In this document: positions 1,326 to 46,780 of the stretch, in pieces
Layout of the letters: every line of letters starts with the position of its first letter
Position numbering within the stretch: position 1 is the first letter of the stretch
The notes under the pieces: generated by a model
The model's database searches: none
What the model saw: the letters and a program-made list of their open reading frames with translations, nothing else
What the model was told of the DNA's origin: nothing
Translations under genes and position numbers: made by a program
NCBI GenBank assembly: GCA_965263375.1
Contig: OZ253669.1
Coordinates: 1,038,282-1,102,281 of the forward strand
Length of the DNA stretch: 64,000 nt
Direction of reading: 5' to 3'
Source: Parvularculaceae bacterium
GTDB taxonomy: Bacteria; Pseudomonadota; Alphaproteobacteria; Caulobacterales; Parvularculaceae

Positions 1326-3125
1326 TTAAGGGCGAAAAGCCGCATCTTGATGCAAGGTATCCGCATCCGCCCTTCCAAGGCCATTGATACCGGCTAAAAA
1401 CGCGCGAATATCAGCATCTGCCGGTCTTTCAACACCAAGCCCGCCATGCTCAGGTTTTGCGGCCATGGGCGCTTTTAATTCATCCGCGGTGAAGTCCATG
1501 CGGATATCATAAGTGCGCTCAGCTTGGTTACGAAGATAACGTTGCGCAGCGTACCATTTATCTTTGTCGAGGTCATCGGTGCAGCTAGCAAGCTCTGCCC
1601 CCTTGGCGCCCCAACGCCGTTCTGGACAATGGAATGGATCAAAGGACAGATCAAAAAGGCGGTCCATAACATGACCCAGGTTTAGCTTTACACGAACCCC
1701 ATCCGATTTTTTGTATTTGATCTGACAGGCGTCTTTTTCTTCGTTAAAGGCCTTCCAAAGATCTCCCGAGAGATCATTCCCACCATATGTGAAGGCCGGG
1801 TCGCCAGCCAGAGCACGGCGATAATTGTCCTCGACCGTGCGGCGCAGCTCAATAAAGCTGACTTTCAATCGGGCATCGCGGGAAGGCGTGGAATAAGCCT
1901 CCCAACTGCCATAAGCGCCGTAAATATTTTGCGGCAGGCGCGTTGGATGGGGTTTTAGCGGCATTTTTGCGGCGACAGCGCGGTCAACCGCTACTTTGCG
2001 CGCTTTAATATCGGTGCAAATCGCGCGAAGGCCGTGGCGCAACTCGTCAACCGGGTTATAGGCGAAATCCGGCGCGGCGAGCTTGCGGCGAACGTAATCG
2101 TAGTAAGTGAGCATGCGCCCAGCGAAGCGGAATTCCCCAAACCGCCAGTCCCCGCTGGGGTGTGGAGTGTTGCCGATATATTGCTCAACAGAAAAGTCAG
2201 CGATGTCTTTATTGGCCGCCGCCCGGATGACGCCGCCTTTGTACGACCCGTCATCCGCCTTTGTTGCGCCATGGAGATGAATAGGCCGCCACGCTTTTAA
2301 TCCAGCGCCAAGCGATGGCTTTGAACGCATAAAGTTTGGGCCATAGACGGTGCGTGTGACTGAGTTATCCGGGTGTGATGCGACAATCATCACCCGCCCA
2401 TCGCGCTTCACGTCATAGACGATGCCAACATGGCCAAAGATGTCATAAGCGATGACGCCTGGGCGTATGGCGTCACGGTTGATCGCAACGGGATAAAAAT
2501 CATCGAATAATTTTCGGTCGCCAAGGTCTGGGTGCGTGCGGAACATGGCGGTTGAAACCTCGCCCCCTATACGCCCAATAAAAGAGGGCGCAGATATAGG
2601 CGTCGATCCGACGGCGTTTCGTCGGGCGTAAACTTTATTGCCATTAGTAGAATAGCGCAGGTCTTCTAATGCGCCGTCGGCGGTGCGCATCTCGCTTTGG
2701 TATGAGAAGACTAAACCGTTTTTCCACGCGTAATATGCGCGTAAGATATAGGCCATATCAGCGCAATCGCCCGAAAAGCTGCGCTTGTCTGATTCGCGGT
2801 AAGGGTTCGCCGGATCGCGCAAACATTCCCAAAGGGTTTTACACTTAGAATTACCGATGGCGGCGACAAAGGCCGAATAGCCAGCTTCGTCTTCTTTATC
2901 CCAGTCTGGTTTATAGATCTTCCACTGGGCGCCATTATTGACGATTTCTGGAATTTTGAGTGTTTGTTCTGCGTGGCTTGCGGAAACATTCGCCAAGTTC
3001 GCGCTTGCGCCAAAGATGGCTGCGCCGCCAAGCATTAAAGCCCGGGCGGCTATAGCGGACTTGCGCCCTCGATGGGCGAGTCTCCCCGCAAAATTGGATA
3101 CCAACTCAAACGCTCGCATATGCAA
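1326..3125 (-). CDS. secreted hypothetical protein, possible papain-like (NlpC/P60-type) Cys/His fold
   Basis: 599-aa ORF with a signal-like N-terminus (ALMLGGAAIFGASANLANVSASHA). The only clues are a Cys motif (GDCADMAY) and a later His motif (FGHVGIVYD). Start codon uncertain. Confidence 0.5.
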   Translation of the reverse strand: MHMRAFELVSNFAGRLAHRGRKSAIAARALMLGGAAIFGASANLANVSASHAEQTLKIPEIVNNGAQWKIYKPDWDKEDEAGYSAFVAAIGNSKCKTLWECLRDPANPYRESDKRSFSGDCADMAYILRAYYAWKNGLVFSYQSEMRTADGALEDLRYSTNGNKVYARRNAVGSTPISAPSFIGRIGGEVSTAMFRTHPDLGDRKLFDDFYPVAINRDAIRPGVIAYDIFGHVGIVYDVKRDGRVMIVASHPDNSVTRTVYGPNFMRSKPSLGAGLKAWRPIHLHGATKADDGSYKGGVIRAAANKDIADFSVEQYIGNTPHPSGDWRFGEFRFAGRMLTYYDYVRRKLAAPDFAYNPVDELRHGLRAICTDIKARKVAVDRAVAAKMPLKPHPTRLPQNIYGAYGSWEAYSTPSRDARLKVSFIELRRTVEDNYRRALAGDPAFTYGGNDLSGDLWKAFNEEKDACQIKYKKSDGVRVKLNLGHVMDRLFDLSFDPFHCPERRWGAKGAELASCTDDLDKDKWYAAQRYLRNQAERTYDIRMDFTADELKAPMAAKPEHGGLGVERPADADIRAFLAGINGLGRADADTLHQDAAFRP

Positions 3126-3306
3126 TATATTAACAAGCTCTTAACGCAAAATGTAGGCTTGTCTCGCAAAATGACGAATTTTTGAGGAGGAAGCGTTGCC
3201 GGAAGGCCGCGCTTATAGGCTTCTGGCTCACTTGACCGCAAGGCGGACCGCGCTTAGAGCCATGCGAGAACTAAAAACGCCTGTAAAGACAAGTCTGTGA
3301 CACGCT

Positions 3307-10822: not shown

Positions 10823-11791
10823 CTAGGCGGCTTCATCATCCCCCACTAAGGCTTTTAGTTTCGGTGGTAATTCAGCATCAAGACTACGAAGGTGGGTGAT
10901 CAACGCCTTTTCAAAAGGCGCCAGGACCCCGTCTTTGTTGATGCGATCGGCGAGCCAGTCAGCTTCTTCAGCAGAAATTTTCTCCGCTTCGCTGGCTTGG
11001 CTCGTATTCATTTCATTAGCGAGTTTGTAACGCGCCTCAACTGCTTCATCGGGGCTTTTCCAAAGGGTCTTGACACGGTCCCATAGGCCCATAGGTTCGG
11101 GTGCTGGTTTCTTTTCGCCTTTAAGAAAACCGCTAGCGTTAAGGGCGGCGGCTCGGCCTAGGGGCTTGTATCCAATATGGGCCATTAGACTATTGGCGAC
11201 GGCTTTTTTAAATAAATCTTCCCAAGCCGGATCATTAAGAGCGTTTTTCGCTGCATCGTTTAGATCGAATAAAAATTCCGCCTCGTCACGTGTCACAGCG
11301 ATATTACCGTCGCCGCCAGCCGCGAAAAGAAAGCGACGCGCCATATCCGCGTCCTCTTTGGAAATAACCGGTCCGTCTGTCTTTTCTAAGATGTGCGCTT
11401 TGAGCTGCTCGCGAATAAAGACATGCATCGCGTCTGGCGTTGCAATGGCTTTTTCTAAGAGCTTCATGAAAAGCCCAAGCTCTAAGAAGCTAATTTTTGT
11501 TCTCTGTCGGGTAACTTGATCTTGCAGCCAAGTGAACTCTTCTTGCGTCAAGTAACCTTCTGGCTCCGCCTGATTCAGGAAGTAGTCGGCGCCAGCTTCT
11601 TCAAAAAACGACGCCCACTCTCTATCGCCTGCTGGCGCGCGCTCAGCGAGTTCAAGCAATTGGGCCATTTCATTGCGTGAAATAATACCATCGGCGAAGA
11701 CTTCGCGTCGTAGGAACAACACGTCGTCGGACCGCACATAACTGGTATTCGCAATGGGAAGAAGGTCGGAAGATGGCAGGGCGGTAGACAT
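10823..11791 (-). CDS. hypothetical protein with repeated TerB-like modules
   Basis: 322-aa acidic ORF. Repeated DG.IS..E / DG.I..DEAEFL segments are reminiscent of TerB-like domains. Confidence 0.45.
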   Translation of the reverse strand: MSTALPSSDLLPIANTSYVRSDDVLFLRREVFADGIISRNEMAQLLELAERAPAGDREWASFFEEAGADYFLNQAEPEGYLTQEEFTWLQDQVTRQRTKISFLELGLFMKLLEKAIATPDAMHVFIREQLKAHILEKTDGPVISKEDADMARRFLFAAGGDGNIAVTRDEAEFLFDLNDAAKNALNDPAWEDLFKKAVANSLMAHIGYKPLGRAAALNASGFLKGEKKPAPEPMGLWDRVKTLWKSPDEAVEARYKLANEMNTSQASEAEKISAEEADWLADRINKDGVLAPFEKALITHLRSLDAELPPKLKALVGDDEAA

Positions 11792-12058
11792 GATTTACTC
11801 CGGTAACGTTGAGCGCAAAATCATGCCTGAATGAAGTTAATATCGTGGAAATCACCAAAAGTTAATAAAAGGTTAATGAAATTGAGAAAATTGAGTGGAT
11901 CGCATTGCTCTAATAAGACTGGGCTTGCATCATCGAATTATTCGGCTATAAGCCACGATCTTTAGCGGTCGCCAGGCGTGAGGGCATGCCTGGGCGGCTT
12001 GAGTGCTTGGCCTTTTTATCAAAGGCCGGCTTTATCAAAAGCCAAAAGGAACAGCGAA

Positions 12059-13539: not shown

Positions 13540-14493
13540 ATGTCTGACCTAAACGTTCTTGAGCAAAATCTTACTGATGAAATCAATGCCGCCGCGGATG
13601 AAACGTCGTTGGAGGCTGTGCGCCTATCCGCCCTTGGTAAAGAGGGTGCGGTCAGCAAGCAGCTACAAACCCTTGGCAAGATGAGCATTGAAGAACGCAA
13701 ACAAATGGGGCCGGTCTTAAACGGGCTAAAAACGCGCATTACAAAAGCGATCGACGATAAAAAACTTCAGCTTGAAGAAGAAGCCTTTGAGGCGCGCCTT
13801 GCCAGCGAAGCGATTGACGTGACCCTTCCTATTCGGCCTGAAGCCATGGGCAAGATCCACCCCATCACACAGGTGAGGGAGGAGCTGGTCAGATTAGTCG
13901 CCCCCTTAGGGTTTGACCTTATTGATTCTGGACCTGGCGAAGGGGCTGCATTGGCCGCTCCCGTCGCCGCCCTAAAAGGGCGTACGGCGCCAACCCGTCT
14001 TATGCTCTTTAATCAAAACTTTGATGAAGATAAAAAAGATGGGTTCACCGGCCATTTGCTTGAAGGGGTCATCGTGGAAAAAGCGATCCATATGGGTCAT
14101 TTGAACGGTTTCTTCAAGACGGTTGTCAGCGCTTTTCTAGGGTTACCAATAGCGCCCATGCGCTTGCGCCCAGATTTTTATCCGGTTACGGAACCTTCTG
14201 CGGTGATGGAGCTGTCTTATGCGCAAACTGGCGGTCTATTAAAGGTTGGGGAGGGAGACCTTTGGGCGCCGGTTGCCGGGGGCGGTATGTTGCGGCCCCA
14301 GGTTTTGGCGGATAACGGCCTTAACCCCAGCGAGGTTCAGGCATGCGTTTGGCGATTTAGCCTCGATCGTCTCACCATGTTAAAATATGGAATTGGGGAG
14401 CAAAAAGAACTTTACACCGCTGATGCGGGTTGGCTCGCCCATTATGGTTTTGAGCCGCTTGTCCAGCCGAATTTAGTGACGGGATCAAACTAA
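13540..14493 (+). CDS. pheS: PheS-like protein (phenylalanine--tRNA ligase alpha-subunit homologue with eroded catalytic motifs)
   Basis: 317 aa. The N-terminal coiled-coil region and C-terminal ...DRLTMLKYGI...WLAHYGF are clearly PheS. The HPAR motif, the LLRTHTS...PGRxYR block, DATHxPxFHQ and motif 3 (GFAFGMGxxR) are altered or missing (see findings). Confidence 0.8.
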   Translation: MSDLNVLEQNLTDEINAAADETSLEAVRLSALGKEGAVSKQLQTLGKMSIEERKQMGPVLNGLKTRITKAIDDKKLQLEEEAFEARLASEAIDVTLPIRPEAMGKIHPITQVREELVRLVAPLGFDLIDSGPGEGAALAAPVAALKGRTAPTRLMLFNQNFDEDKKDGFTGHLLEGVIVEKAIHMGHLNGFFKTVVSAFLGLPIAPMRLRPDFYPVTEPSAVMELSYAQTGGLLKVGEGDLWAPVAGGGMLRPQVLADNGLNPSEVQACVWRFSLDRLTMLKYGIGEQKELYTADAGWLAHYGFEPLVQPNLVTGSN

Positions 14494-14891
14494 TGACCGC
14501 AGATGAACGACCTGAAGGCGCGCTGACGATACGCACCGTTGCGATGCCAGCGGACGCAAATGCTAATGGCGATATTTTCGGCGGCTGGGTCTTGTCACAG
14601 ATGGATATTGCCGGAGGTATAGCGGCGTCGGAGCGTTCCAACGGTCGGGCCGCCACTGTGGCGGTTGAGGCGATGACGTTTTTAAAGCCTGTCCATATCG
14701 GTAATGTTTTGTGCGTCTACACCCAGGTGCTTGGTGTCGGCAATACTTCTATGCGCATACAGGTAGAGGCTTGGGCGCGCCGTCAGCTTACTAATGATCG
14801 TGTTAAGGTGACAGAAGGGGTCTTCACATTTGTGGCGATTGATGAAAATCGGCAAAAGCGCTTGGTTCCAGCTGAAGGCGATCTGTTGTAA
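14493..14891 (+). CDS. yciA: YciA-type acyl-CoA thioesterase (hotdog fold)
   Basis: 132 aa. LTIRTVAMPADANANGDIFGGWVLSQMDIAGGIAA...VEAMTFLKPVHIGNVL is near-colinear with E. coli YciA as I recall it. The start overlaps the pheS-like stop (TAATG). Confidence 0.88.
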   Translation: MTADERPEGALTIRTVAMPADANANGDIFGGWVLSQMDIAGGIAASERSNGRAATVAVEAMTFLKPVHIGNVLCVYTQVLGVGNTSMRIQVEAWARRQLTNDRVKVTEGVFTFVAIDENRQKRLVPAEGDLL

Positions 14892-14918: not shown

Positions 14919-16703
14919 ATGAAATTCTCTCTTAGTTTGCTTAAAGAGCATTTGAAGATAAATGCTGACCTTGATGAGATTGTTGCGGCAATGCTATCGC
15001 TCGGCTTGAACGTTAAGTCGGTTGATAATCCAGCGGAACGCCTAAAAGACTTTACGATCGCTGAAGTATTAGAGGCGGAAAAGCACCCAGATGCTGATAA
15101 GCTGCGGGTGTGTAAAGTCGCTACAAAAGATGGTGAAAAACAAATCGTATGCGGCGCACCGAATGCCCGGGCCGGAATAAAGGTCGCCTATGCGGCGGTG
15201 GGGACGTATGTGCCAGGTATCGATATCACCCTTTCTAAGGCGAAAATTCGCGGCGTTGAAAGCTTTGGCATGATGTGCTCAGCGCGCGAGCTTGAACTTG
15301 GTCAAGATCATGACGGAATAATTGAAGCGCCACAGGCGTCGCAAATCGGACAGGCGGTCGTCGAAGCGCTGAACGCCAACGATCCAATTGTTGAGTTCGA
15401 AGCTCCATCAAACCGTCCTGATGCAAATAAAATTGAGGGTGTTGCGCGCGAGCTTGCGGCTGCGGGGTTCGGGGAATTACTCGCCCCGATTGATGATGGC
15501 TCTTCGGTTATAAGGGAGCTTGAATTTTCCGCGCCGGAACTTCAAGCCCTGACCGGCGCCTCACTAGAGGCGATAACGGTCAAGCGGATTTTGGAAAGCC
15601 TTGGTTTTTCGATTAAAGAAAAAACCGGCTCCCTTTTGTCCGTCGGCATCCCTTCATGGCGTGCTGACGTGAAAGAAAGTGCTGATCTAGTTGAAGATAT
15701 TTTCCGGATTATCGGATATCGTGAAATTCCAGCTGTGCCGTTACCCGGTTTAGGGCATGTCCCGACCATATCGCCTTTATATATGCGCCAAGCGGGCGCC
15801 CGCCGTGTGTTGGCGTCGCGCGGTATGTTGGAATTGGTTGGTCATCCGGGTGCGTCGAATGAGTTCGCATCGTTCTTTCAAAGTAATAAAGACGAAGCTA
15901 ATGACGAAGCTAATGAAGCTCAGACGACACAGTCTCCTCAAAAGGACTTACTGTCCCAATCCCTTTTGCTAACCCTTCTTACTGCGATAAGGGAAAATGT
16001 TGATCGCGCTGCCGAGGGGCTTTCATTCTTTGAATTTGGTCCCATCGTGAAAGCTACGGCGGGGGCGGAGCATTTAACTGTTGTTGGCGGTATTCGTTCA
16101 TCGGGCCGCCCCCGTCACTGGCGGGATGGCTTGGGGCTGGTCGACGTGTTCAGTGTAAAGGCGGATGCTATGGCGACGCTTGAGGCGGCAGGCGCGAAGG
16201 TTTCCTCGCTTCAAACGGCGGTGGACGCGCCTACTTGGTTCCACCCAGGACGGTCAGGTGTTTTGCGCTTAGGGCCAAAGAATATTTTAGCCGCCTTTGG
16301 TGAAGTGCATCCCAAAATATTATTGGAGATGGGAATTGAAGATCGGGCGTACGCTTTTGAGGTCAATCTGAGTGCTATACCGGCCGCTAAACCGAGCAAG
16401 GGGACAGCAAAACCAGTTTATGAGGGTAGGGGTGAAACAGCCATTCGTTGTGATTTCGTCTTTACTGTCCCTAATGATGTGTCTGCCGAAGCGTTCCTTA
16501 ATGCCGTTAAAGGGACTGATAAAAAACATATTTCACATGTAAAGCTTACTGCGCTTAACGCAGCGGGCGAGCAAAAATCGTTATCCGTTGAGGTGACCTT
16601 TGCGCCAAAGGGTAAAACGCTGGATGACGAGGCGATTTCAGCGCTTTCAGCAAAAATTGCTGCTCAAGTGGATAAAGCCACGGGTGGGACGATGCTGAGT
16701 TAG
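14919..16703 (+). CDS. pheT: PheT-like protein (phenylalanine--tRNA ligase beta-subunit homologue lacking the B3/4 editing domain)
   Basis: 594 aa, versus about 800 aa usual. The tRNA_bind OB domain (HPDADKLRVC...VCGAPNA...RGVESFGMMCS), B5-like region (PSWRADV..DLVEDIFRIIGY..IP) and C-terminal FDX-ACB-like region are present. The roughly 200-aa B3/4 segment between SNRPDA... and B5 is absent. Confidence 0.8.
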   Translation: MKFSLSLLKEHLKINADLDEIVAAMLSLGLNVKSVDNPAERLKDFTIAEVLEAEKHPDADKLRVCKVATKDGEKQIVCGAPNARAGIKVAYAAVGTYVPGIDITLSKAKIRGVESFGMMCSARELELGQDHDGIIEAPQASQIGQAVVEALNANDPIVEFEAPSNRPDANKIEGVARELAAAGFGELLAPIDDGSSVIRELEFSAPELQALTGASLEAITVKRILESLGFSIKEKTGSLLSVGIPSWRADVKESADLVEDIFRIIGYREIPAVPLPGLGHVPTISPLYMRQAGARRVLASRGMLELVGHPGASNEFASFFQSNKDEANDEANEAQTTQSPQKDLLSQSLLLTLLTAIRENVDRAAEGLSFFEFGPIVKATAGAEHLTVVGGIRSSGRPRHWRDGLGLVDVFSVKADAMATLEAAGAKVSSLQTAVDAPTWFHPGRSGVLRLGPKNILAAFGEVHPKILLEMGIEDRAYAFEVNLSAIPAAKPSKGTAKPVYEGRGETAIRCDFVFTVPNDVSAEAFLNAVKGTDKKHISHVKLTALNAAGEQKSLSVEVTFAPKGKTLDDEAISALSAKIAAQVDKATGGTMLS

Positions 16704-16785: not shown

Positions 16786-16861
16786 GCCGCATTAGCTCAG
16801 CTGGTAGAGCACATCATTCGTAATGATGGGGTCAGGTGTTCAAGTCACCTATGCGGCACCA
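16786..16861 (+). tRNA. tRNA-Thr (anticodon CGU)
   Basis: Manual cloverleaf: acceptor GCCGCAT/ATGCGGC, D-arm GCTC-AGCTGGTA-GAGC, anticodon arm CATCA-TTCGTAA-TGATG, T-arm AGGTG-TTCAAGT-CACCT, encoded CCA. Confidence 0.9.
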
Positions 16862-17086: not shown

Positions 17087-18220
17087 ATGAATAATCATAC
17101 TACCAGTAAAGATGCTGAAAACTCCAATCTTGGATGGCTTAGAAAAGTTTGGAGACAATTCAAAAAGACAGACACATATGGCATCTTAGTTGATGTTATA
17201 GCAGGTGGGGTACCTTTTGGTTTGACGTTGGGTGGCCTCTTGTTGATAGTAATTGGAAGCATCCCTGAGAAACCAGACATATTTATGCGGTCGGTGGCAG
17301 GGGCTGGCAGCGCTATTTTAGCAGGTGGCGTATTCTCTGTGATACTCAAAACAATGCAAGTTAGAGGCGTTTTTCAAGATACTCTCAGCAAAGTTTTGTT
17401 TGATGAGCCTTATCTTAAAAAACGGAATGACCTAAGGGAGTTGTGGTCAAAGGTGACTAGCCTGATTTCGAAACAAAGATTTTCGACATTAGAGAGTCAT
17501 ATGCATGAAGCAATAATGGAGCATTATATTCCAACCAAAGATGATTATTATTTTGAAAATTATTATCGAACATGTGTGGTTAGGTGGAACAATGAAGAAA
17601 CTACAGAAATTTCGCTGAGTGAAGAGATTTCACTGCACATTGTTCCCACGAGTGCAGATGCTGAGATTACATATAAATTTTCATCTAGTCCAAGCCCGGG
17701 AGTGCCTTTAGAAGTGGCTTGTCCGAAAGTTGATTATCTAAAGATAAATAACAAAGTTTATTTTGAAAACGGAAAACCCTTAAAAGAAGAGTATATACAG
17801 GAAGGCAAGGGGAAAGAGGGCGAGGAATTTAAAGTCGCAATACCGCTTGCGGGCTCGAAACGCTACGTAGTTGAAAGACGGTCTCACCGAACATTTCCTA
17901 TGGGGGTTGATCCATTTCAGCGCTATGTTTCGCCAAGATTTATTAAAGGCGCTAAAATTAACGTTCACTGCATTGCTAAAAACTTGCGCGTTCGTTTTGT
18001 ATCGCTAGGAACGCCAAATGAGTTTTCAAGCTTTTTCCCTAAGGAGATTGCGGACATATCTCGTGCGGGGGATATCAACCGCGAATACCCAGGTTTGCTA
18101 TTTCCTGAACAAGGGTATCTACTCGTCTTTCATTATCTTGATCCAAAACTTGTGAAGAGGTTTGATGTTCAGACAAATACGGCCTCGGAAGAAGGCGCGG
18201 CCGCATCTGCCAAAAATTAG
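17087..18220 (+). CDS. orphan hypothetical protein with two N-terminal TM helices and a roughly 280-aa soluble domain
   Basis: 377-aa ORF preceded by a GGGGGAG RBS. Markedly AT-rich coding sequence compared with the flanks. No family recognised. Confidence 0.6.
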   Translation: MNNHTTSKDAENSNLGWLRKVWRQFKKTDTYGILVDVIAGGVPFGLTLGGLLLIVIGSIPEKPDIFMRSVAGAGSAILAGGVFSVILKTMQVRGVFQDTLSKVLFDEPYLKKRNDLRELWSKVTSLISKQRFSTLESHMHEAIMEHYIPTKDDYYFENYYRTCVVRWNNEETTEISLSEEISLHIVPTSADAEITYKFSSSPSPGVPLEVACPKVDYLKINNKVYFENGKPLKEEYIQEGKGKEGEEFKVAIPLAGSKRYVVERRSHRTFPMGVDPFQRYVSPRFIKGAKINVHCIAKNLRVRFVSLGTPNEFSSFFPKEIADISRAGDINREYPGLLFPEQGYLLVFHYLDPKLVKRFDVQTNTASEEGAAASAKN

Positions 18221-18474
18221 TCCCGCGGACGCCGATAATTACGGACAGTAAAACAACGAGTTATTTTTGTCATGTTTGGTGCGCTGCCGTGGTGCGAATC
18301 TTGCGATAAATTGAACACACCCTGCTGAGAGTTAACCTAGCTTTGACAAAAATCAGCCCAATATCTCTGTAGTCAGGGTTGAGATGGAGTTAACCTTTTG
18401 TTAACTGTTTCACCTGCCAGTTGATTCTATAGAAGTTTATTCCGCCTTTACCGATGTTTAGAAAGGGTTTAGAA

Positions 18475-18630
18475 ATGGCTAGTTACCTAGGTTTTTGTTT
18501 GGAGTATCAAACTTTGGCTTCACTAGTGCCCTCAGCTCTTGGAACTGAAACCATGCTTGGAACTGAAACCATGCTTGGAACTGAAACCATGCTTGGAACT
18601 GAAACCATGCTTGGAACTGAAACCATGTAG
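18475..18630 (+). CDS. possible micro-ORF: 51-aa peptide MASYLGFCLEYQTLASLVPSA(LGTETM)x5
   Basis: ATG at 18475 with an AAGGG 7 nt upstream. The ORF reads through all five repeat units and stops at TAG directly after the last unit, with a strong terminator 27 nt downstream. Coding status unproven because other frames of the repeat are also open. Confidence 0.3.
   Translation: MASYLGFCLEYQTLASLVPSALGTETMLGTETMLGTETMLGTETMLGTETM
18538..18627. repeat. perfect tandem direct repeat, 5 x 18 bp (CTTGGAACTGAAACCATG)
   Basis: Read directly: units at 18538-18555, 18556-18573, 18574-18591, 18592-18609 and 18610-18627, with no mismatches and no spacers. Confidence 0.97.
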
Positions 18631-18657
18631 CTAGCTTTAAGATTTAGAGCTGTTAGT

Positions 18658-18683
18658 GCGGGGCAAATTGCCCCGCTTTTTTG
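18658..18683 (+). terminator. rho-independent terminator
   Basis: GCGGGGC-AAATT-GCCCCGC followed by TTTTTT. Only the + strand has the U-run. Confidence 0.75.
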
Positions 18684-18724: not shown

Positions 18725-19168
18725 CTAGCTACGGAGGCTATAAATTACCAGGTGAGACGTAGCGTTTTTTTTCACTCCATTATCAGCCAGTCCCAATTCC
18801 CGTGCAATGATGTTGGCGTTCAGCATGCTGGCCGCGGCGCCTTCAAATTTCTGCACCCAAATGATGCTCTCCGCTCGTGTAATGATATCAAGAAAACCTT
18901 CGCGCTTTTTGTAATTGAGCCAGGTGGGCAAGCTTATATCGAGGTGTCGGCATAAACCGCTAAGGGTCATGGCGCGCATCTTGGGAATGTCTATGACGGT
19001 GACAGCACCACGATAGGTGAATGCCTTTCTTCGATAGAGCGGGTTCGTCTCCACCCATTCGAAATATTGTTCGCACGCGTCCCACAACTCATCCGGCGAA
19101 GCGAATTTCGGCTTTCGCCCGTGGGGCGTGCGTTGCTTCCAAAATTGATTTCCTTTAGCGGCTGACAT
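18725..19168 (-). CDS. phage terminase small subunit / DNA-packaging protein (orphan)
   Basis: 147 aa. GNQFW..R..HGRKPKF.SPDELWDACEQYFEW...NP ... MTLSGLCRHLDIS..TWLNY resembles the HTH-type small terminase family. No large terminase is adjacent. Confidence 0.6.
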   Translation of the reverse strand: MSAAKGNQFWKQRTPHGRKPKFASPDELWDACEQYFEWVETNPLYRRKAFTYRGAVTVIDIPKMRAMTLSGLCRHLDISLPTWLNYKKREGFLDIITRAESIIWVQKFEGAAASMLNANIIARELGLADNGVKKNATSHLVIYSLRS

Positions 19169-19225
19169 GGTCAGTATCTCCTTATGGGATAGTCCGTGGC
19201 CGCTATCCGCCTGTTAAAATACTCC

Positions 19226-19576
19226 CTAACGGATAAGCCTTACCCCGGGCCCTTCGCCTTCGAGAAACTGAATGCCGCGGGCGGTAAACGCGTCAACGAT
19301 ACGGTCAATCGCGAAACCTGCCATGCCCCATTTTTCCTCCCGGGCTTCCCAATGAGTGAGGGTCTTCGGGTGAAGCCCGGCCGCCTGAGCAAGTTGCTTT
19401 TGCGAAAGGCCGGCTAAGGCGCGAGCGGCGGCAATCTGACGACCCGTTGTAATTGTGCCTGTAGAAATCAATACCCGGTTCCGGGTGATGGGAGCAACAG
19501 GCAGCTTCGAACTTGTCTGCTTGGTTGGTTCGCCATCGAGCGATAGAAAACCCATGTTTGCTGTTTTTGTCATCAC
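19226..19576 (-). CDS. XRE-family helix-turn-helix transcriptional regulator
   Basis: 116 aa. GRQIAAARALAGLSQKQLAQAAGLHPKTLTHWE is a classic XRE HTH. A GGAG RBS lies upstream of the ATG at 19576. Confidence 0.75.
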   Translation of the reverse strand: MMTKTANMGFLSLDGEPTKQTSSKLPVAPITRNRVLISTGTITTGRQIAAARALAGLSQKQLAQAAGLHPKTLTHWEAREEKWGMAGFAIDRIVDAFTARGIQFLEGEGPGVRLIR

Positions 19577-19746
19577 AAAGTTTCTCCAATTTTCAATTGC
19601 ACCATTCCACTCGCCCTGGATGCCCCCTCAATCGCCCCAGATTGAGTCAGGATTCGCAAATGCACCTCTTTTGCACCCTTACCGTGACCCGACCCCTTTG
19701 AACGCAGCCGATTTGAAGTAGTACAAATTAGCAAAGGAGACGTTCA

Positions 19747-20019
19747 ATGTCTGGGAAGAGATACGGGCCGGAAGAGGCCATCAACAAATTACGTGAAGCC
19801 GATATTCTGTTGGGCCAGGGTAAAACAGTTGGCGAAGTGATCCGTCAGCTCGGTGTGAATAAAGTGACTTACTACAGGTGGCGCCGAGAGTTTGGCGGCA
19901 TGAAAGTCGAACAGGCGAAACGGCTGAAGGAACTGGAAAAAGAAAATGGCCGGTTGAAGCGTCTTCTGGCTGACGCCGAACTCGATAAAGCGATCCTCAA
20001 GGAAGCCGCGTCGGGGTGA
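19747..20019 (+). CDS. IS3-family transposase OrfA (HTH / leucine zipper)
   Basis: 90 aa. ...VTYYRWRREFGGM..EQAKRLKELEKENGRLKRLLADAELDKAILKEAASG is typical IS3 OrfA. It ends at TGA 20017-20019. Confidence 0.85.
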   Translation: MSGKRYGPEEAINKLREADILLGQGKTVGEVIRQLGVNKVTYYRWRREFGGMKVEQAKRLKELEKENGRLKRLLADAELDKAILKEAASG

Positions 20020-20934
20020 TTGAATTCAATCACGGTAGGGCCTTCACGCAAACGCGACTTTATTGAACATGCTTGCGATAAGCTCGGCGTCTCAGAACGC
20101 CGGGCTTGTCGCCTGCTCAAGCAACATCGTTCAACGCAGTGGCGTAAACCGCAAAAAGTTGACGATGAAGATGCGCTGACCATCGCCATTATTGAGCTGG
20201 CGAGCATCTATGGCCGCTATGGCTACAAGCGGATTACGGCGTTGCTGAAAGCAATTGGCTGGCATGTGAACCACAAACGCGTGGCGCGTATCTGGAAGCG
20301 TGAAGGCCTGAAAGTTCCGAAAAAACAGCCCAAACGCGGCAGGCTATGGCTGAATGGCGGGTCGTGCGTTCGCTTGCGGCCGCAACACCGCAACCATGTT
20401 TGGAGTTATGATTTCGTGCAGGATAAAACCCGCGACGGGAAGAAGTTCCGCATGCTCACCGTCATTGATGAGTTCACCCGCGAATGTCTGGCAATTACTG
20501 TCGCACGGCGGCTGAACAGTCAGGACGTTCTTGATGTTCTGGCCGATCTGATGACGACGCGCGGCGTCCCCGATCACATTCGTTCAGATAACGGCGGCGA
20601 ATTCCGGGCCAAAGCGGTACAGAAACTACTCGGCAAAGTCGGCGTGAAAACCCTTTACATAGAACCGGGTTCGCCATGGGAAAACGGATACAATGAATCT
20701 TTCAATGGCCGATTGCGTGACGAGTGCTTAAACGTGGAGCTTTTCAATAATTTGATGGAGGCCAAAATCATCATTGAGCAATGGCGTGTCCGATACAACA
20801 CAATCCGTCCGCATTCAGCCTTGCAGTACAAACCGCCAGCGCCGGAAACATTAAACCCGGCCGATCTGGCTCCCGCTATTTGGCAGCTCCCGCCAGACCG
20901 GCCTTCCATCGAAAGCAATAGTATGGTTGCATAG
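20020..20934 (+). CDS. IS3-family transposase OrfB (rve/DDE integrase core), in the same frame as OrfA
   Basis: ...[17 protein letters not shown]...[10 protein letters not shown]...HVWSYDF...[12 protein letters not shown]...IRSDNGGEF...[18 protein letters not shown]... The frame continues directly from the OrfA stop codon. Confidence 0.85.
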
Positions 20935-21101
20935 AAGGTGGCTGCGCCATCGGGGTTTCGTCAGATTTACCCTTGCAACAATGGCGATGGCTGGATTTCG
21001 GATCAATTTGATCGCCATCGGCATAATCACTTTGGTCGGTTATTATCTAGCGCCTATGGTATTAAGGTAGTTTGATTTATCTCATTTCTTGAGAGGAATA
21101 C

Positions 21102-43437: not shown

Positions 43438-44070
43438 TTACAGTTTTTGACGCGCAATATTTAAAATAAGAATACTCTGGGCGTCCTCTCCGATCACTGA
43501 CTGAGCTGCTGTTAATAGCTCAGACCGCACATTGTTGAGGTTTTCTTCGGTCAAGATCTTTGATCCGAACGCTCCGCCATTTGACAGCCGAAATAATGCC
43601 TTCAATAAGACATCCCGTAATTTAGGCTCTAAATTATATGCGCTTGATGCGCCGCTTGGAGAAGATTCTATGTTGATATCAAGAACAACAACAAAGCCGG
43701 GGCCATCAGCATTGATGACAGGGACAATAAATTGGCGGCTAAATTTAATAAAGCTTGCTGGGTTGCCGTAAGCTTCTTCCCCTTCGTAATCTTTATCTTT
43801 TCCCTTGTCTTTTTTCTTTTTATCTTTTTTATCACCCTTCTTAGCTTTGTCTTTCTTTTTATCCTTTTTCTTGTCTTTATCCTTCTTTTTATCTTTATCT
43901 TTTTTCTTGTCTTTGTCGCCCTTATCCTTTTTGCCTTCGTCTTTTGTTTTGTCGCCTTCTTCGGCGGTTGCGGCAACCGGTTCCGGCGCTGGTCTCATGG
44001 TTAGGCCAGCATAAGCGCCGCCTGATACCGCGATCACTTGCAAGACAATAGGGAGGATTTTATCGATCAT
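43438..44070 (-). CDS. FliL-like basal-body-associated protein with a K/D-rich low-complexity insert
   Basis: 210 aa with an N-terminal TM helix. About 60 aa of KKDKDKKKDK-type repeats. The C-terminal FIKFSRQFIVPV....VVLDINIE...LEPKLRDVLL resembles the FliL fold. Confidence 0.55.
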   Translation of the reverse strand: MIDKILPIVLQVIAVSGGAYAGLTMRPAPEPVAATAEEGDKTKDEGKKDKGDKDKKKDKDKKKDKDKKKDKKKDKAKKGDKKDKKKKDKGKDKDYEGEEAYGNPASFIKFSRQFIVPVINADGPGFVVVLDINIESSPSGASSAYNLEPKLRDVLLKALFRLSNGGAFGSKILTEENLNNVRSELLTAAQSVIGEDAQSILILNIARQKL

Positions 44071-46066: not shown

Positions 46067-46780
46067 TTATTCCGTCATTTTACGGATTGTATCTTTTATT
46101 CGGTCGTCTTCTTGTTGGAGCATGCGCTGCCCCATTTCATAGGTGCGCTGAACCTCAATCAAATGGGCGATTTCAGTAACAGCATTGACATTTGAACCTT
46201 CAACAGCGCCCTGTAAAAGGCGCGCATCAGTCGCTGGCTCGTAACCTTCTTCAGTGGAAAAGACATTGTCGCCCTCGCGAGTTAAGCTCGCCCGATTGGT
46301 TGTGACCATGCCGATTTGGCCGATCGCTTGTCCATCAGCGCTTAAAGTGCCGTCTGCCGAAGCCGTTATGGCGCTTGTTCCAGCTGGAATAGCTAATGCG
46401 CCGCCGCCATTGTTCAATACACGGAAGCCTTCTTGCGTTGAAAGCTCGCCTTGGCCGTTTAAGGTGAATGAACCAGCGCGGGTTAACCGCTCGCCATTGG
46501 GGGTTTCAACAAGGAAAAACGCGTCACCTTCGATTGCAAAGTCAAGTTTGTTATCGGTGACAGTAACTTCCCCTTGGCTTAAATCGATGATGTGGCGGTT
46601 CATCACCGCCATGGAAAGGCTGGGGTCTTCCATGTCGAGAGCTTTAATATGCTCTGAAAAAGAAGTGGCTTCACGGCGATAGCCCGCCGTGTTTACGTTC
46701 GCAATGTTATTCGCGATTATGTTGAGCTGTTTAAATAACCCAGACTGACGGGTGAGGGCGACATAGCTAGCGTTATCCAT
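46067..46780 (-). CDS. flgF: flagellar proximal rod protein FlgF
   Basis: 237 aa. MDNASYVALTRQSGL...L..IANNIANVNT.GYRRE and C-terminal ...GAVEGSNVN.V.E...LIEVQR.YE. Confidence 0.88.
   Translation of the reverse strand: MDNASYVALTRQSGLFKQLNIIANNIANVNTAGYRREATSFSEHIKALDMEDPSLSMAVMNRHIIDLSQGEVTVTDNKLDFAIEGDAFFLVETPNGERLTRAGSFTLNGQGELSTQEGFRVLNNGGGALAIPAGTSAITASADGTLSADGQAIGQIGMVTTNRASLTREGDNVFSTEEGYEPATDARLLQGAVEGSNVNAVTEIAHLIEVQRTYEMGQRMLQQEDDRIKDTIRKMTE

What the first reader, a model, noticed from the sequence alone, without database searches (positions are those of the whole stretch)
18340..18683. Perfect 5 x 18-bp tandem repeat forming a self-contained unit: candidate micro-gene for (LGTETM)x5, or a repeat-bearing RNA or DNA-binding site
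CTTGGAACTGAAACCATG is repeated five times head to tail with zero mismatches (18538-18627). Features consistent with a discrete expressed unit:
- An ATG at 18475, with AAGGG 7 nt upstream, opens a frame that enters the repeat in phase. It gives MASYLGFCLEYQTLASLVPSA followed by LGTETM x5.
- The frame ends at a TAG placed immediately after the fifth unit.
- A strong + strand terminator follows 27 nt later.

Possible interpretations:
- A small repeat peptide, for example a multi-core precursor.
- A small RNA with five GGA-containing repeats acting as a protein sponge.
- Iterons or a pac-like recognition array for the adjacent small terminase or XRE protein.

Perfect identity of the units implies very recent expansion or active homogenisation. 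One other forward frame of the repeat (LELKPC) and the reverse frames (for example MVSVPS) are also open, so coding is unproven.
Basis: seen in the sequence. Interest (0 to 1): 0.65.

Follow-up and report, generated by a model that had tools for sequence, protein, structure and literature searches.

The report
Repeat-peptide micro-gene partnered with membrane protein
The perfect 5 x 18-bp repeat is very probably the coding core of a tiny unannotated gene, (LGTETM)x5, that travels with the uncharacterised two-pass membrane protein gene upstream of it, a pairing found in distantly related bacteria and apparently not described before.

Summary
In detail: CTTGGAACTGAAACCATG occurs 5.0 times with no mismatch at 18538-18627, inside an ORF (ATG 18475, TAG 18628) that is followed by a strong terminator.

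The repeat has nothing detectable to do with the neighbouring terS or XRE genes. It belongs with the upstream 377-aa gene (17087-18220).
- That gene encodes two N-terminal membrane helices and an all-beta domain.
- An exhaustive HMMER search finds at least 589 clusters of relatives. None matches Pfam, NCBIfam, PADLOC or PHROGs.

I could fetch eight distinct homologues, 27-48% identical to each other. All eight have a micro-ORF just downstream carrying the same peptide motif, [E/Q/H]-T-[M/I/L].
- In some it is a tandem 18-nt array: M(M/I)STET x5, ISTETM x3, FQKETM x5.
- In others it is a single 7-9-codon ORF: MLSHTQTI, MVIGHTHTI, MRVKETL.

So the micro-gene reading is supported, and the sRNA-sponge and iteron/pac readings are not. 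Function is inferred only. I think the peptide is most likely a cytoplasmic ligand or antitoxin-like partner of the membrane protein, in a mobile cassette that often sits among defence genes.

The parts
16786..16861 (+). tRNA-Thr(CGT), the left junction of the variable islet that carries the cassette
   Evidence: ARAGORN and Rfam. DNA identity with the contig of a relative whose PheT is 93% identical (L017) stops exactly at the tRNA 3' end, and different cargo follows in each genome.
17087..18220 (+). 377-aa protein, partner of the micro-gene: two N-terminal membrane helices, a helical linker, an all-beta domain and a C-terminal helix. It belongs to an uncharacterised family.
   Evidence: SD GGGGGAG precedes the ATG. 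No Pfam, PHROG, NCBIfam or PADLOC hit. An exhaustive phmmer search finds 589 cluster representatives at E<=1e-3. AF2 with a 40-sequence alignment gives pLDDT 86.7: helices 30-58 and 65-92, strands 154-350.
18389..18405 (.). Palindrome GTTAAC-N5-GTTAAC, which equals TTAA-N7-TTAAC on both strands (CtrA-box-like). It is a candidate regulatory site between the two genes; this is inference.
   Evidence: One search finds 4 strand matches at three places (3130, 11861, 18389/18390), against 0.48 expected. All three lie between ORFs of the list or, for 3130, a few bases from the start of one.
18475..18630 (+). Micro-ORF of 51 aa: MASYLGFCLEYQTLASLVPSA(LGTETM)x5, then stop. The start is uncertain: 18454 gives 58 aa, and the ATG that ends each unit is also in frame.
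   Evidence: The same frame and motif occur in all eight homologous loci. The source's gene caller did not predict it, since a protein search returned no self-hit.
18538..18627 (+). Five identical 18-bp units CTTGGAACTGAAACCATG, i.e. five LGTETM hexapeptides
18658..18683 (+). Intrinsic terminator closing the unit. It is the first + strand terminator-like site after the 377-aa gene.
   Evidence: 8-bp stem with 7 G-C pairs, a 3-nt loop and a T6 run; no other + strand terminator-like site between 17331 and 18658. RNAfold finds comparable hairpins followed by T runs after the micro-ORFs of L018, L019, L151 and L154.

Best explanation
The array is the coding core of a translated micro-gene (51 aa; five LGTETM hexapeptides ending ...ETM-stop). 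This micro-gene is the conserved partner of the upstream 377-aa protein. Together they form a two-gene cassette closed by one terminator, carried on a variable islet at tRNA-Thr.

Shown:
- The repeat, ORF and terminator are present as described.
- The upstream protein belongs to a large uncharacterised family.
- Every homologue examined has a downstream micro-ORF with the motif [E/Q/H]-T-[M/I/L], either once at the C-terminus or repeated with an 18-nt period.
- Variation inside arrays is confined to third codon positions.
- The flavour of the motif follows protein relatedness.

Inferred:
- The peptide is made in the cytoplasm and binds the all-beta domain of the membrane-anchored partner. I place that domain in the cytoplasm from the K/R-rich N-terminus followed by a two-helix hairpin.
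- Bound peptide keeps the partner in check, in the manner of an antitoxin. Tandem amplification of the motif raises dose or valency.
- When peptide supply fails, for example during translation shut-off on phage infection or after loss of the element, the two-helix module acts on the membrane.
- Perfect unit identity here and in L150 means a recent slippage or recombination expansion, so copy number is probably variable.

My estimates: real translated partner gene about 0.85; antitoxin-like ligand mechanism about 0.35. The single confidence value given (0.45) is for the whole statement, mechanism included.
For: Family and association:
- The 377-aa protein has 589 cluster representatives at E<=1e-3.
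- Nine distinct loci including the window were examined. Their family proteins are only 27-48% identical pairwise.
- All nine have exactly one micro-ORF meeting the motif criterion within 520 nt downstream. The same criterion is met in 19 of 657 control windows, 2.9%.

Peptides:
- Window: (LGTETM)x5, stop.
- L018: MMSTET MMSTET MISTET MISTET MISTET M, stop.
- L020: MSTET MISTET MISTET MVVV, stop.
- L019: MRRISTETMIAPRSQRTAIQSTETMIGL.
- L149: ...RSRETMIHLSRETM, stop.
- L150: ...(FQKETM)x5..., on the opposite strand.
- L151: MVIGHTHTI.
- L154: MLSHTQTI.
- L021: MRVKETL.

Coding signature: in L018, 5 of 5 variable columns of the 18-nt unit are codon position 3 of this frame (p=7e-4). In L020, 4 of 4 are (p=5e-3).

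Co-variation: the closest protein pairs share peptide flavour. W/L018 (39%) have xGTETM and xSTETM. L021/L150 (48%) have KETL and KETM. L151/L154 (41%) have GHTHTI and SHTQTI.

Translation signals: SD-like purine runs precede most of the starts.

Operon: there is no + strand terminator-like site between the 377-aa gene and 18658. The gaps are only 73-84 nt in L151, L154 and L021.

Fold: two membrane helices plus a beta domain, pLDDT 86.7. The repeat tail of the peptide is predicted without secondary structure (low confidence).

Context:
- bSEFIR is adjacent in L019, and RmrT/RmrA are adjacent in L151.
- L151 is Tn7-like cargo; L154 has ParE/RHH next door; L150 has PIN and a resolvase.
- The window copy lies in a tRNA-Thr islet with IS3 and phage remnants.
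Against: - There are no expression, toxicity or binding data.
- Only nine loci of a family of about 590 clusters were examined, and the motif criterion was written after seeing the first loci.
- Antitoxins usually precede their toxin. Here the peptide follows, and in L150 it is convergent, so co-transcription is not universal.
- Family-wide conservation is dominated by G, P, aromatic and aliphatic residues, and no pore-forming signature is evident. Fold matches are weak (TM-score normalised to the query 0.23-0.30) and uninformative.
- Four of the eight other loci (L018, L020, L021, L149) show no defence or mobile neighbours.
- The start codon in the window is uncertain, and its SD (AAGGG) is weaker than those of neighbouring genes.
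- The source's gene caller did not call the ORF.
Confidence: 0.45

Rival explanations
1. The micro-ORF is a peptide precursor, RiPP-like or a signalling peptide. A leader is followed by one or several identical core hexapeptides that are cut out, possibly modified, and exported. The membrane protein would be the processing, export, immunity or receptor component.
For: - Several loci show a leader-plus-repeated-core layout: window 21-aa leader plus 5 cores, L149 29 aa plus 2, L150 28 aa plus 5.
- Single-core versions of 7-9 aa exist. From my own knowledge they recall minimal precursors such as microcin C MccA or biarylitide BytA.
- Independent amplification of the core in different lineages is typical of multi-core precursors (knowledge).
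- The partner is membrane-anchored.
Against: - No recognisable modifying enzyme, protease or transporter lies in the window or in any of the eight other loci.
- The partner family's invariant and near-invariant positions are G, P, aromatic and aliphatic residues, with no obvious catalytic set.
- By my reading of the model and the K/R-rich N-terminus, its beta domain is cytoplasmic.
- L018, L020, L151 and L021 have no leader before the first motif if the SD-supported start is used.
Confidence: 0.2
2. The micro-ORF acts in cis as a nascent-peptide (arrest) sensor. The conserved C-terminal [E/Q/H]-T-[M/I/L] next to the stop codon stalls the ribosome under some condition. This changes the stability, termination or 3'-end processing of the cassette mRNA, and the released peptide has no role.
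For: - Conservation is concentrated in the last three residues, and in 6 of 9 loci these are immediately followed by the stop codon. From my own knowledge this is the pattern of arrest and leader peptides.
- ORFs of 7-9 codons are typical of such sensors (knowledge).
- A hairpin and terminator follow within 22-45 nt.
Against: - No conserved gene lies downstream to be regulated. The neighbours differ in every locus, and in the window and L019 they are on the other strand.
- The stop codon is too far from the terminator stem (27 nt in the window) for a stalled ribosome to mask it.
- I saw no alternative antiterminator pairing in the folds.
- Co-variation of peptide flavour with the partner protein is not expected for a ribosome-directed motif.
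Confidence: 0.12
3. The functional product is RNA: a repeat RNA that is processed by, or binds, the partner protein (a type III antitoxin-like RNA) or another factor (a sponge). Translation would be incidental.
For: - The units are perfect at nucleotide level here and in L150.
- The unit has its own terminator.
- The core GAAACNATG is conserved at nucleotide level across arrays.
- The region folds somewhat better than shuffles, z = -2.2.
Against: - Variable sites in L018 and L020 fall only on third codon positions.
- The Thr codon of the motif is ACC, ACG, ACT or ACA and the Glu codon is GAA or GAG.
- Single-copy loci keep a start codon, an SD and a stop around the motif.
- No Rfam family matches.
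- The predicted folds give the units no repeated, unit-by-unit structure. By my reading of the sequence each unit could form only a 3-bp stem, UGG/CCA.
- The partner has no ToxN/AbiQ-type domain.
Confidence: 0.07
4. The array is a DNA-level element: iterons, a pac site or an operator for the adjacent terS or XRE proteins. Alternatively it is a functionless minisatellite in a decaying islet.
For: - It is adjacent to terS and XRE.
- Five direct repeats of 18 bp resemble iteron arrays in size (knowledge).
- Perfect identity is what a young neutral slippage product looks like.
Against: - Sixteen loci with related terS genes (38-62% identity) have no comparable array beside terS, and share nothing else with the region.
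- The array tracks the 377-aa family instead, in loci that lack terS and XRE.
- Frame-specific conservation is not expected for a DNA site or for neutral DNA between proteins only 27-48% identical.
Confidence: 0.04

Closest known systems
Type III toxin-antitoxin systems (ToxIN, AbiQ/antiQ, CptIN, TenpIN)
   Same: A short tandem array next to a single protein gene, closed by a terminator, on mobile or defence-associated DNA. Copy number varies between lineages. The logic I propose, a repeated and labile neutraliser of a harmful partner, is the same.
   Different: - Those repeats are about 34-40 nt of non-coding RNA placed upstream of an endoribonuclease toxin (my knowledge of the family).
- Here the period is 18 nt and the array lies downstream of, or once convergent with, the partner.
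- The array shows a coding substitution pattern.
- The partner is a two-pass membrane protein with no ToxN-type domain.
Multi-core and minimal ribosomal peptide precursors (e.g. cyanobactin PatE, fungal ustiloxin-type repeats, microcin C MccA, biarylitide BytA)
   Same: Very small ORFs in which a short conserved core is present once or as identical tandem copies, sometimes behind a leader. They are located beside a cognate protein gene.
   Different: No modifying enzyme, protease or exporter is recognisable in any locus. The partner shows no obvious conserved catalytic residues. The core motif [E/Q/H]-T-[M/I/L] returned no relevant paper in the searchable library.
Two-helix membrane effectors of abortive-infection systems (e.g. 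CBASS Cap15-type 2TM beta-barrel effectors, Pycsar PycTM)
   Same: An N-terminal two-helix membrane hairpin joined to a cytoplasmic, ligand-binding-sized beta domain. In some loci the genes sit beside known defence genes.
   Different: No sequence match to any PADLOC model for the window protein; among 40 family members only one weak hit (E 4.7e-4) to an unrelated model. No nucleotide-signal synthase is nearby. The candidate ligand would be a gene-encoded peptide.
Regulatory leader and arrest peptides (erm, cat and tna leaders)
   Same: ORFs of 7-30 codons whose conserved residues sit at the C-terminal end next to the stop codon, followed by RNA hairpins.
   Different: No conserved downstream gene, and no overlap between the ORF and the terminator stem. 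The peptide flavour co-varies with the upstream protein.

Membership tests
Type III TA antitoxin RNA (ToxI-like) | Tandem non-coding repeats of about 34-40 nt located upstream of the toxin gene | tested here: not met
   The period is 18 nt. The array lies 318 nt downstream of the partner gene and is convergent with it in L150.
Type III TA antitoxin RNA (ToxI-like) | Partner is a ToxN/AbiQ/CptN/TenpN-type endoribonuclease | tested here: not met
   No Pfam, PADLOC or NCBIfam hit for the window protein. No family is shared among the members scanned: 10 against Pfam, 40 against PADLOC and NCBIfam. The AF2 model is two membrane helices plus a beta domain.
Type III TA antitoxin RNA (ToxI-like) | Repeats conserved as RNA, with no reading-frame constraint | tested here: not met
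   All 9 variable columns in the L018 and L020 arrays are third codon positions of one frame.
CsrB/RsmY/RsmZ-type protein-sponge sRNA | Multiple GGA motifs presented in hairpin loops, and a match to a known covariance model | tested here: not met
   No Rfam hit at gathering score or at E<=1 apart from two sub-threshold matches over the terminator region. The MFE and centroid folds give no repeated unit hairpins. By my reading of the unit, its GGA would lie in the only possible stem (UGG/CCA). GGA is absent from several units of L018.
Iterons, or a pac or operator array of the adjacent terS/XRE | The array co-occurs with the binding protein's gene in related elements | tested here: not met
   Sixteen terS-related loci show no comparable array and no similarity to the intergenic region. 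The array co-occurs with the 377-aa family instead.
RiPP or signalling-peptide precursor | A short precursor with a conserved core, once or in tandem copies | tested here: met
   The core [E/Q/H]-T-[M/I/L] is present in 9 of 9 loci, in 1 to 5 copies.
RiPP or signalling-peptide precursor | Adjacent modifying enzyme, protease or dedicated exporter | tested here: not met
   No such gene is conserved or recognisable next to the cassette. Conserved positions of the partner show no obvious catalytic set.
RiPP or signalling-peptide precursor | A processed or modified mature peptide exists | not testable with these tools
   Needs LC-MS of cells and supernatant.
Leader-peptide attenuator | Short ORF upstream of a conserved regulated gene, with alternative terminator and antiterminator pairing that overlaps the ORF | tested here: not met
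   Downstream genes differ in every locus, and in the window (terS) and L019 (integrase) they are on the other strand. There are 27 nt between the stop codon and the terminator stem in the window.
Toxin-antitoxin or abortive-infection two-gene cassette (generic) | Two adjacent genes that move together, found on mobile or defence-island DNA | tested here: inconclusive
   Adjacency holds in 9 of 9 loci. Defence or mobile neighbours are present in the window and in 4 of the 8 other loci: bSEFIR, RmrT/RmrA with a Tn7-like element, ParE/RHH, PIN with a resolvase. The other four show none.
Toxin-antitoxin or abortive-infection two-gene cassette (generic) | One product is toxic and the other neutralises it | not testable with these tools
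   Needs expression of the 377-aa gene with and without the micro-ORF.

The most novel reading that the evidence does not exclude
A gene-encoded, tandemly amplified hexapeptide is the labile neutraliser or ligand of a two-pass membrane effector. This would be a protein-level counterpart of the repeated RNA antitoxins of type III systems. It would define a previously unrecognised two-gene defence or addiction module with at least 589 protein clusters, reaching both Alphaproteobacteria and Bacteroidota, whose second gene is missed by the gene calling or annotation of some source records.
Probability: 0.3. Interest if true: 0.85.

Novelty: new variant of a known kind. Interest (0 to 1): 0.72.

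Why it matters
If this holds, three things follow.

1. A perfect 'intergenic' minisatellite turns out to be a conserved protein-coding micro-gene. Gene callers were inconsistent on it. The window's ORF was not called. In L018 an ORF on the opposite strand was called instead. Only in L149 and L150 was it called in the right frame.

2. A family of at least 589 clusters annotated only as 'hypothetical protein' gains an obligatory partner, and with it a testable hypothesis: a peptide ligand for a membrane-anchored beta domain.

3. The same short motif has been amplified into 18-nt arrays in at least three lineages, with different unit sequences: xGTETM/xSTETM, FQKETM, and the two xSRETM copies of L149. 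This suggests selection on peptide dose or valency. That principle is known for RNA antitoxins and multi-core natural-product precursors, but to my knowledge not for a peptide partner of a membrane protein.

The cassette is small and sits next to known defence genes in several genomes, so it is a cheap candidate for experimental testing.

Tried and rejected
- Exact 23- and 28-mers of the repeat had no match in viral, genome or metagenome collections. The DNA itself is unique to this genome in those data.
The hits I read were low-complexity stretches, a conserved large protein of gut bacteria, or, in L078, an alternative frame of an Asn-rich gene. None lies beside a family member, even at HMM E<=10.
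- terS route: 16 related loci were fetched. Only terS is shared, and no comparable array lies beside it.
- Exact-sequence look-ups of the window's terS and 377-aa proteins were not on record.
- The word-index protein search called the 377-aa protein an orphan. The exhaustive HMMER search overturned this.
- The 58-aa ORF had no protein hit at all, not even itself.
- The search for related loci with family alignments either found no usable conserved stretch or found no viral relatives.
- The family is absent from the plasmid and phage collections, and one member's DNA is absent from E. coli genomes.
- Rfam gave nothing but the tRNA.
- Foldseek against PDB and BFVD gave only a weak likeness (TM-score normalised to the query 0.23-0.30) to N-terminal beta domains of M1 aminopeptidases and similar sandwiches. 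A PDB profile search gave nothing.
- No att-type duplicate of the tRNA 3' end is present, so the right border of the islet is undefined.
- Sigma-70 promoter scans of the spacers are inconsistent between loci. Who transcribes the micro-ORF is unresolved.
- A sigma-54-like TGGTGCG-N4-TTGCG at 18290-18305 was seen by eye. I dismissed it as within chance expectation.
- Literature searches for the motif and for comparable cassettes found nothing relevant.
Full report
**1. The observation**

The array is real and exactly as described. CTTGGAACTGAAACCATG occurs 5.0 times with 100% identity at 18538-18627. No other copy exists in the window even with three mismatches, against 0.06 expected.

The ATG at 18475, the AAGGG 7 nt upstream, the TAG at 18628-18630 directly after the fifth unit, and the terminator (stem 18658-18676 plus T6) 27 nt further on can all be read.

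Five of the six frames of the unit are open, so the open frame alone proves nothing. The TTGACA at 18343 has no usable -10 hexamer, and the scan reports no + strand promoter-like site between 17930 and 18690.

**2. Where it sits**

The window is a chromosome, not a prophage. The gene order is:
- rpmI-rplT-pheS-(thioesterase)-pheT-tRNA-Thr(CGT);
- then the region of interest;
- then metabolic genes and a large flagellar cluster.

PheT hits place the host among Parvularculaceae/Hyphococcus-like Alphaproteobacteria. A contig from a relative whose PheT is 93% identical matches up to the last base of the tRNA and then diverges completely. Everything after 16861 is therefore variable cargo at an integration hot spot.

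The cargo is small:
- a 377-aa ORF (17087-18220, +);
- the repeat unit;
- a terS of the GP3_package type (18725-19168, -);
- an XRE-type HTH gene (19226-19576, -);
- an IS3 element.

There is no integrase, terL or portal among the ORFs I scanned in 16.9-25.9 kb.

**3. The terS/XRE link fails**

I fetched sixteen loci encoding terS relatives (38-62% identity). They share only terS with the window. None has a comparable array beside it, and none resembles the intergenic DNA. Exact pieces of the repeat occur nowhere in the viral, genome or metagenome collections.

**4. The upstream gene is the partner**

The word-index protein search found only the protein itself. The exhaustive HMMER search of 1.84 billion representatives found 589 relatives at E<=1e-3 and 334 at E<=1e-10, typically 310-400 aa.
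- None of the members scanned matches a shared Pfam, NCBIfam or PADLOC family, and the window protein matches no PHROG.
- Named members are 'hypothetical protein' in Thalassospira and in the Bacteroidota genus Taibaiella.
- With a 40-sequence alignment AF2 gives a confident model (pLDDT 86.7): two membrane helices (30-58, 65-92), a helical linker, an all-beta domain (154-350) and a C-terminal helix.
- Structure searches return only weak similarity to generic beta sandwiches.

**5. The decisive result**

I could fetch DNA for eight distinct homologues. Every one has a micro-ORF within a few hundred bases downstream that carries the same short motif.

| Locus | Micro-ORF product | Note |
|---|---|---|
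| Window | ...(LGTETM)x5, stop | 5 perfect 18-nt units |
| L018 | MMSTET MMSTET MISTET MISTET MISTET M, stop | ends ...ACC ATG TGA, as the window ends ...ACC ATG TAG |
| L020 | MSTET MISTET MISTET MVVV, stop | |
| L019 | MRRISTETMIAPRSQRTAIQSTETMIGL | two separated copies |
| L149 | ...RSRETMIHLSRETM, stop | called as a gene in the source data |
| L150 | ...(FQKETM)x5... | five perfect 18-nt units on the opposite strand; called as a gene |
| L151 | MVIGHTHTI | SD-preceded; a hairpin plus T run follows |
| L154 | MLSHTQTI | SD-preceded; a hairpin plus T run follows |
| L021 | MRVKETL | purine run GGAAGGA 11 nt upstream; only a weak hairpin follows |

The shared element is [E/Q/H]-T-[M/I/L]. It occurs once at the C-terminus or is repeated with a six-residue period. 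In six of nine loci it abuts the stop codon.

A simple detector for such ORFs fires in 9 of 9 family loci and in 19 of 657 (2.9%) control windows. I wrote the detector after seeing the first loci, so the exact p-value should not be taken literally. The contrast is still very large.

**6. Peptide or RNA?**

The two imperfect arrays settle the frame.
- In L018 the five units differ at five of 18 columns, and all five are third codon positions of the M-x-S-T-E-T frame (p=7e-4).
- In L020, four of four variable columns are third positions (p=5e-3).
- Across loci the Thr codon of the motif is ACC, ACG, ACT or ACA and the Glu codon is GAA or GAG, while the residues stay fixed.
- The nine partner proteins are only 27-48% identical, so unconstrained DNA would have been randomised.
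- The flavour of the peptide follows protein relatedness: W/L018 xGTETM and xSTETM, L021/L150 KETL and KETM, L151/L154 GHTHTI and SHTQTI.

This is the signature of a translated product that co-evolves with its neighbour.

Against an RNA reading:
- Rfam finds nothing.
- The predicted folds give the units no repeated structure of their own.
- GGA is not conserved across arrays.

**7. What the array means**

The same motif has been amplified into 18-nt arrays with different unit sequences in different branches. L150 has five copies where its 48%-identical relative L021 has one. Two of the arrays (window, L150) are perfect, and one (L018) has accumulated synonymous changes.

Arrays therefore arise repeatedly by slippage or unequal recombination and are then kept in frame. 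The window's copy is young, and its copy number is probably variable between strains. This is inference.

**8. How it most likely works**

Shown: a two-gene cassette, membrane protein plus motif-bearing micro-protein, normally in the same orientation and closed by a terminator. In the window no + strand terminator-like site separates the two genes. In L151, L154 and L021 the gap is 73-84 nt.

Inferred topology: the N-terminus is K/R-rich and is followed by a two-helix hairpin. That would put the beta domain in the cytoplasm, where the peptide is made.

Inferred role: the family shows no obvious conserved catalytic residues. I therefore favour a binding role over an enzymatic one.

Context:
- The cassette lies next to bSEFIR in L019 and next to RmrT/RmrA inside a Tn7-like element in L151.
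- It lies next to ParE/RHH in L154 and near PIN and a resolvase in L150.
- In the window it lies in a tRNA islet with IS3 and phage remnants.

My best explanation is that the micro-protein is a cytoplasmic ligand that restrains the membrane protein, in the manner of an antitoxin. Tandem copies would raise dose or valency, and loss of peptide supply would free the two-helix module to act on the membrane. I put the coding and partner claim at about 0.85 and this mechanism at about 0.35.

Rivals:
- A processed or exported peptide precursor (0.2). It fits the leader-plus-cores layout but lacks any enzyme, protease or exporter.
- A cis-acting arrest peptide (0.12). It fits the stop-proximal conservation but has nothing conserved to regulate.
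- An RNA product (0.07).
- A DNA site or neutral minisatellite (0.04).

**9. Comparison with what is known**

The closest analogies are:
- type III toxin-antitoxin arrays: same logic, but those are longer non-coding units placed upstream of an RNase;
- multi-core or minimal ribosomal peptide precursors;
- two-helix abortive-infection effectors with a ligand-binding beta domain;
- leader and arrest peptides.

Each fails at least one defining feature tested here (see the membership table). Full-text searches for the motif and for comparable cassettes found nothing relevant.

I rate it a new variant of a known kind: a small repeat-peptide gene with a cognate partner. The bolder reading, a peptide counterpart of repeated RNA antitoxins that defines a new module, stays open at about 0.3.

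**10. Limits**

- Nine loci only.
- No expression data.
- The start codon in the window is uncertain (18475, 18454 or an internal ATG).
- Transcription signals are inconsistent between loci.
- The peptide-only AF2 model is of low confidence: pLDDT 67, a helix at 3-17 and a repeat tail without secondary structure.
- The palindrome GTTAAC-N5-GTTAAC at 18389-18405, a CtrA-box-like TTAA-N7-TTAAC, is one of three such sites in the window, all between or at the edge of ORFs. It may provide an internal regulatory input. This is untested.

Noticed in passing
window 14919-16703 (pheT); compare L017 3677-5449: PheT is only 594 aa and lacks the B3_4 domain (PF03483) that every other top hit (about 802 aa) carries. 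From my own knowledge this is the editing domain. A 93%-identical relative is also short, at 590 aa. This suggests a lineage-specific loss of PheRS editing.
   Followed up: partly
window 14493-14891: A 4HBT-type thioesterase gene lies between pheS and pheT in the window. It is absent from the close relative L017, where pheS and pheT are 66 nt apart.
   Followed up: no
window 16861/16862; L017 5607/5608: Sequence identity with the relative ends exactly at the 3' end of tRNA-Thr(CGT), and each genome carries different cargo after it. No att-like duplicate of the tRNA end was found in the window, so the right border of the islet is undefined.
   Followed up: partly
window 18725-19576 (- strand): An orphan small-terminase gene (GP3_package, PHROG 606) is preceded by an XRE-type HTH gene, with no terL, portal or integrase among the neighbouring ORFs scanned. 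It is either a prophage or satellite remnant cut by the IS3 next door, or a minimal terS-only hitchhiker. The best relatives are only 62% identical and come from very different taxa.
   Followed up: partly
window about 19686-20963: An IS3-family element (orfA 19747-20019, orfB 20020-20934) with terminal inverted repeats TGACCCGACCCC and TGACGAAACCCC, read by eye. It may have truncated the islet.
   Followed up: no
window 3130-3145, 11861-11876, 18389-18405: There are three TTAA-N7-TTAA(C) sites (CtrA-box consensus), all between ORFs or, for 3130, a few bases from the start of one. Two of them share the spacer CCTTTT(A/G). Two sit upstream of ORFs with no Pfam match (599 aa at 1326-3125 and 322 aa at 10823-11791).
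   Followed up: partly
window 46773-49202 (- strand) and 43438-44070 (- strand): An 809-aa ORF inside the flagellar cluster has no Pfam match and contains a 12-bp repeat (48711-48767). The neighbouring 210-aa ORF overlaps several imperfect T-rich repeats (43808-43914).
   Followed up: no
L151 4961-4975 and 5064-5079: Nearly the same 15-nt string (GGAAAATTCGTGCCC and AGAAAAATTCGTTCCC) follows both the stop codon of the family gene and the stop codon of its micro-ORF. This hints at a local duplication or a shared 3' signal.
   Followed up: no
L018 2891-3073 (- strand): The source's gene caller annotated a 60-aa ORF on the strand opposite to the M(M/I)STET array. It is an example of how these repeat micro-genes get mis-called.
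   Followed up: no
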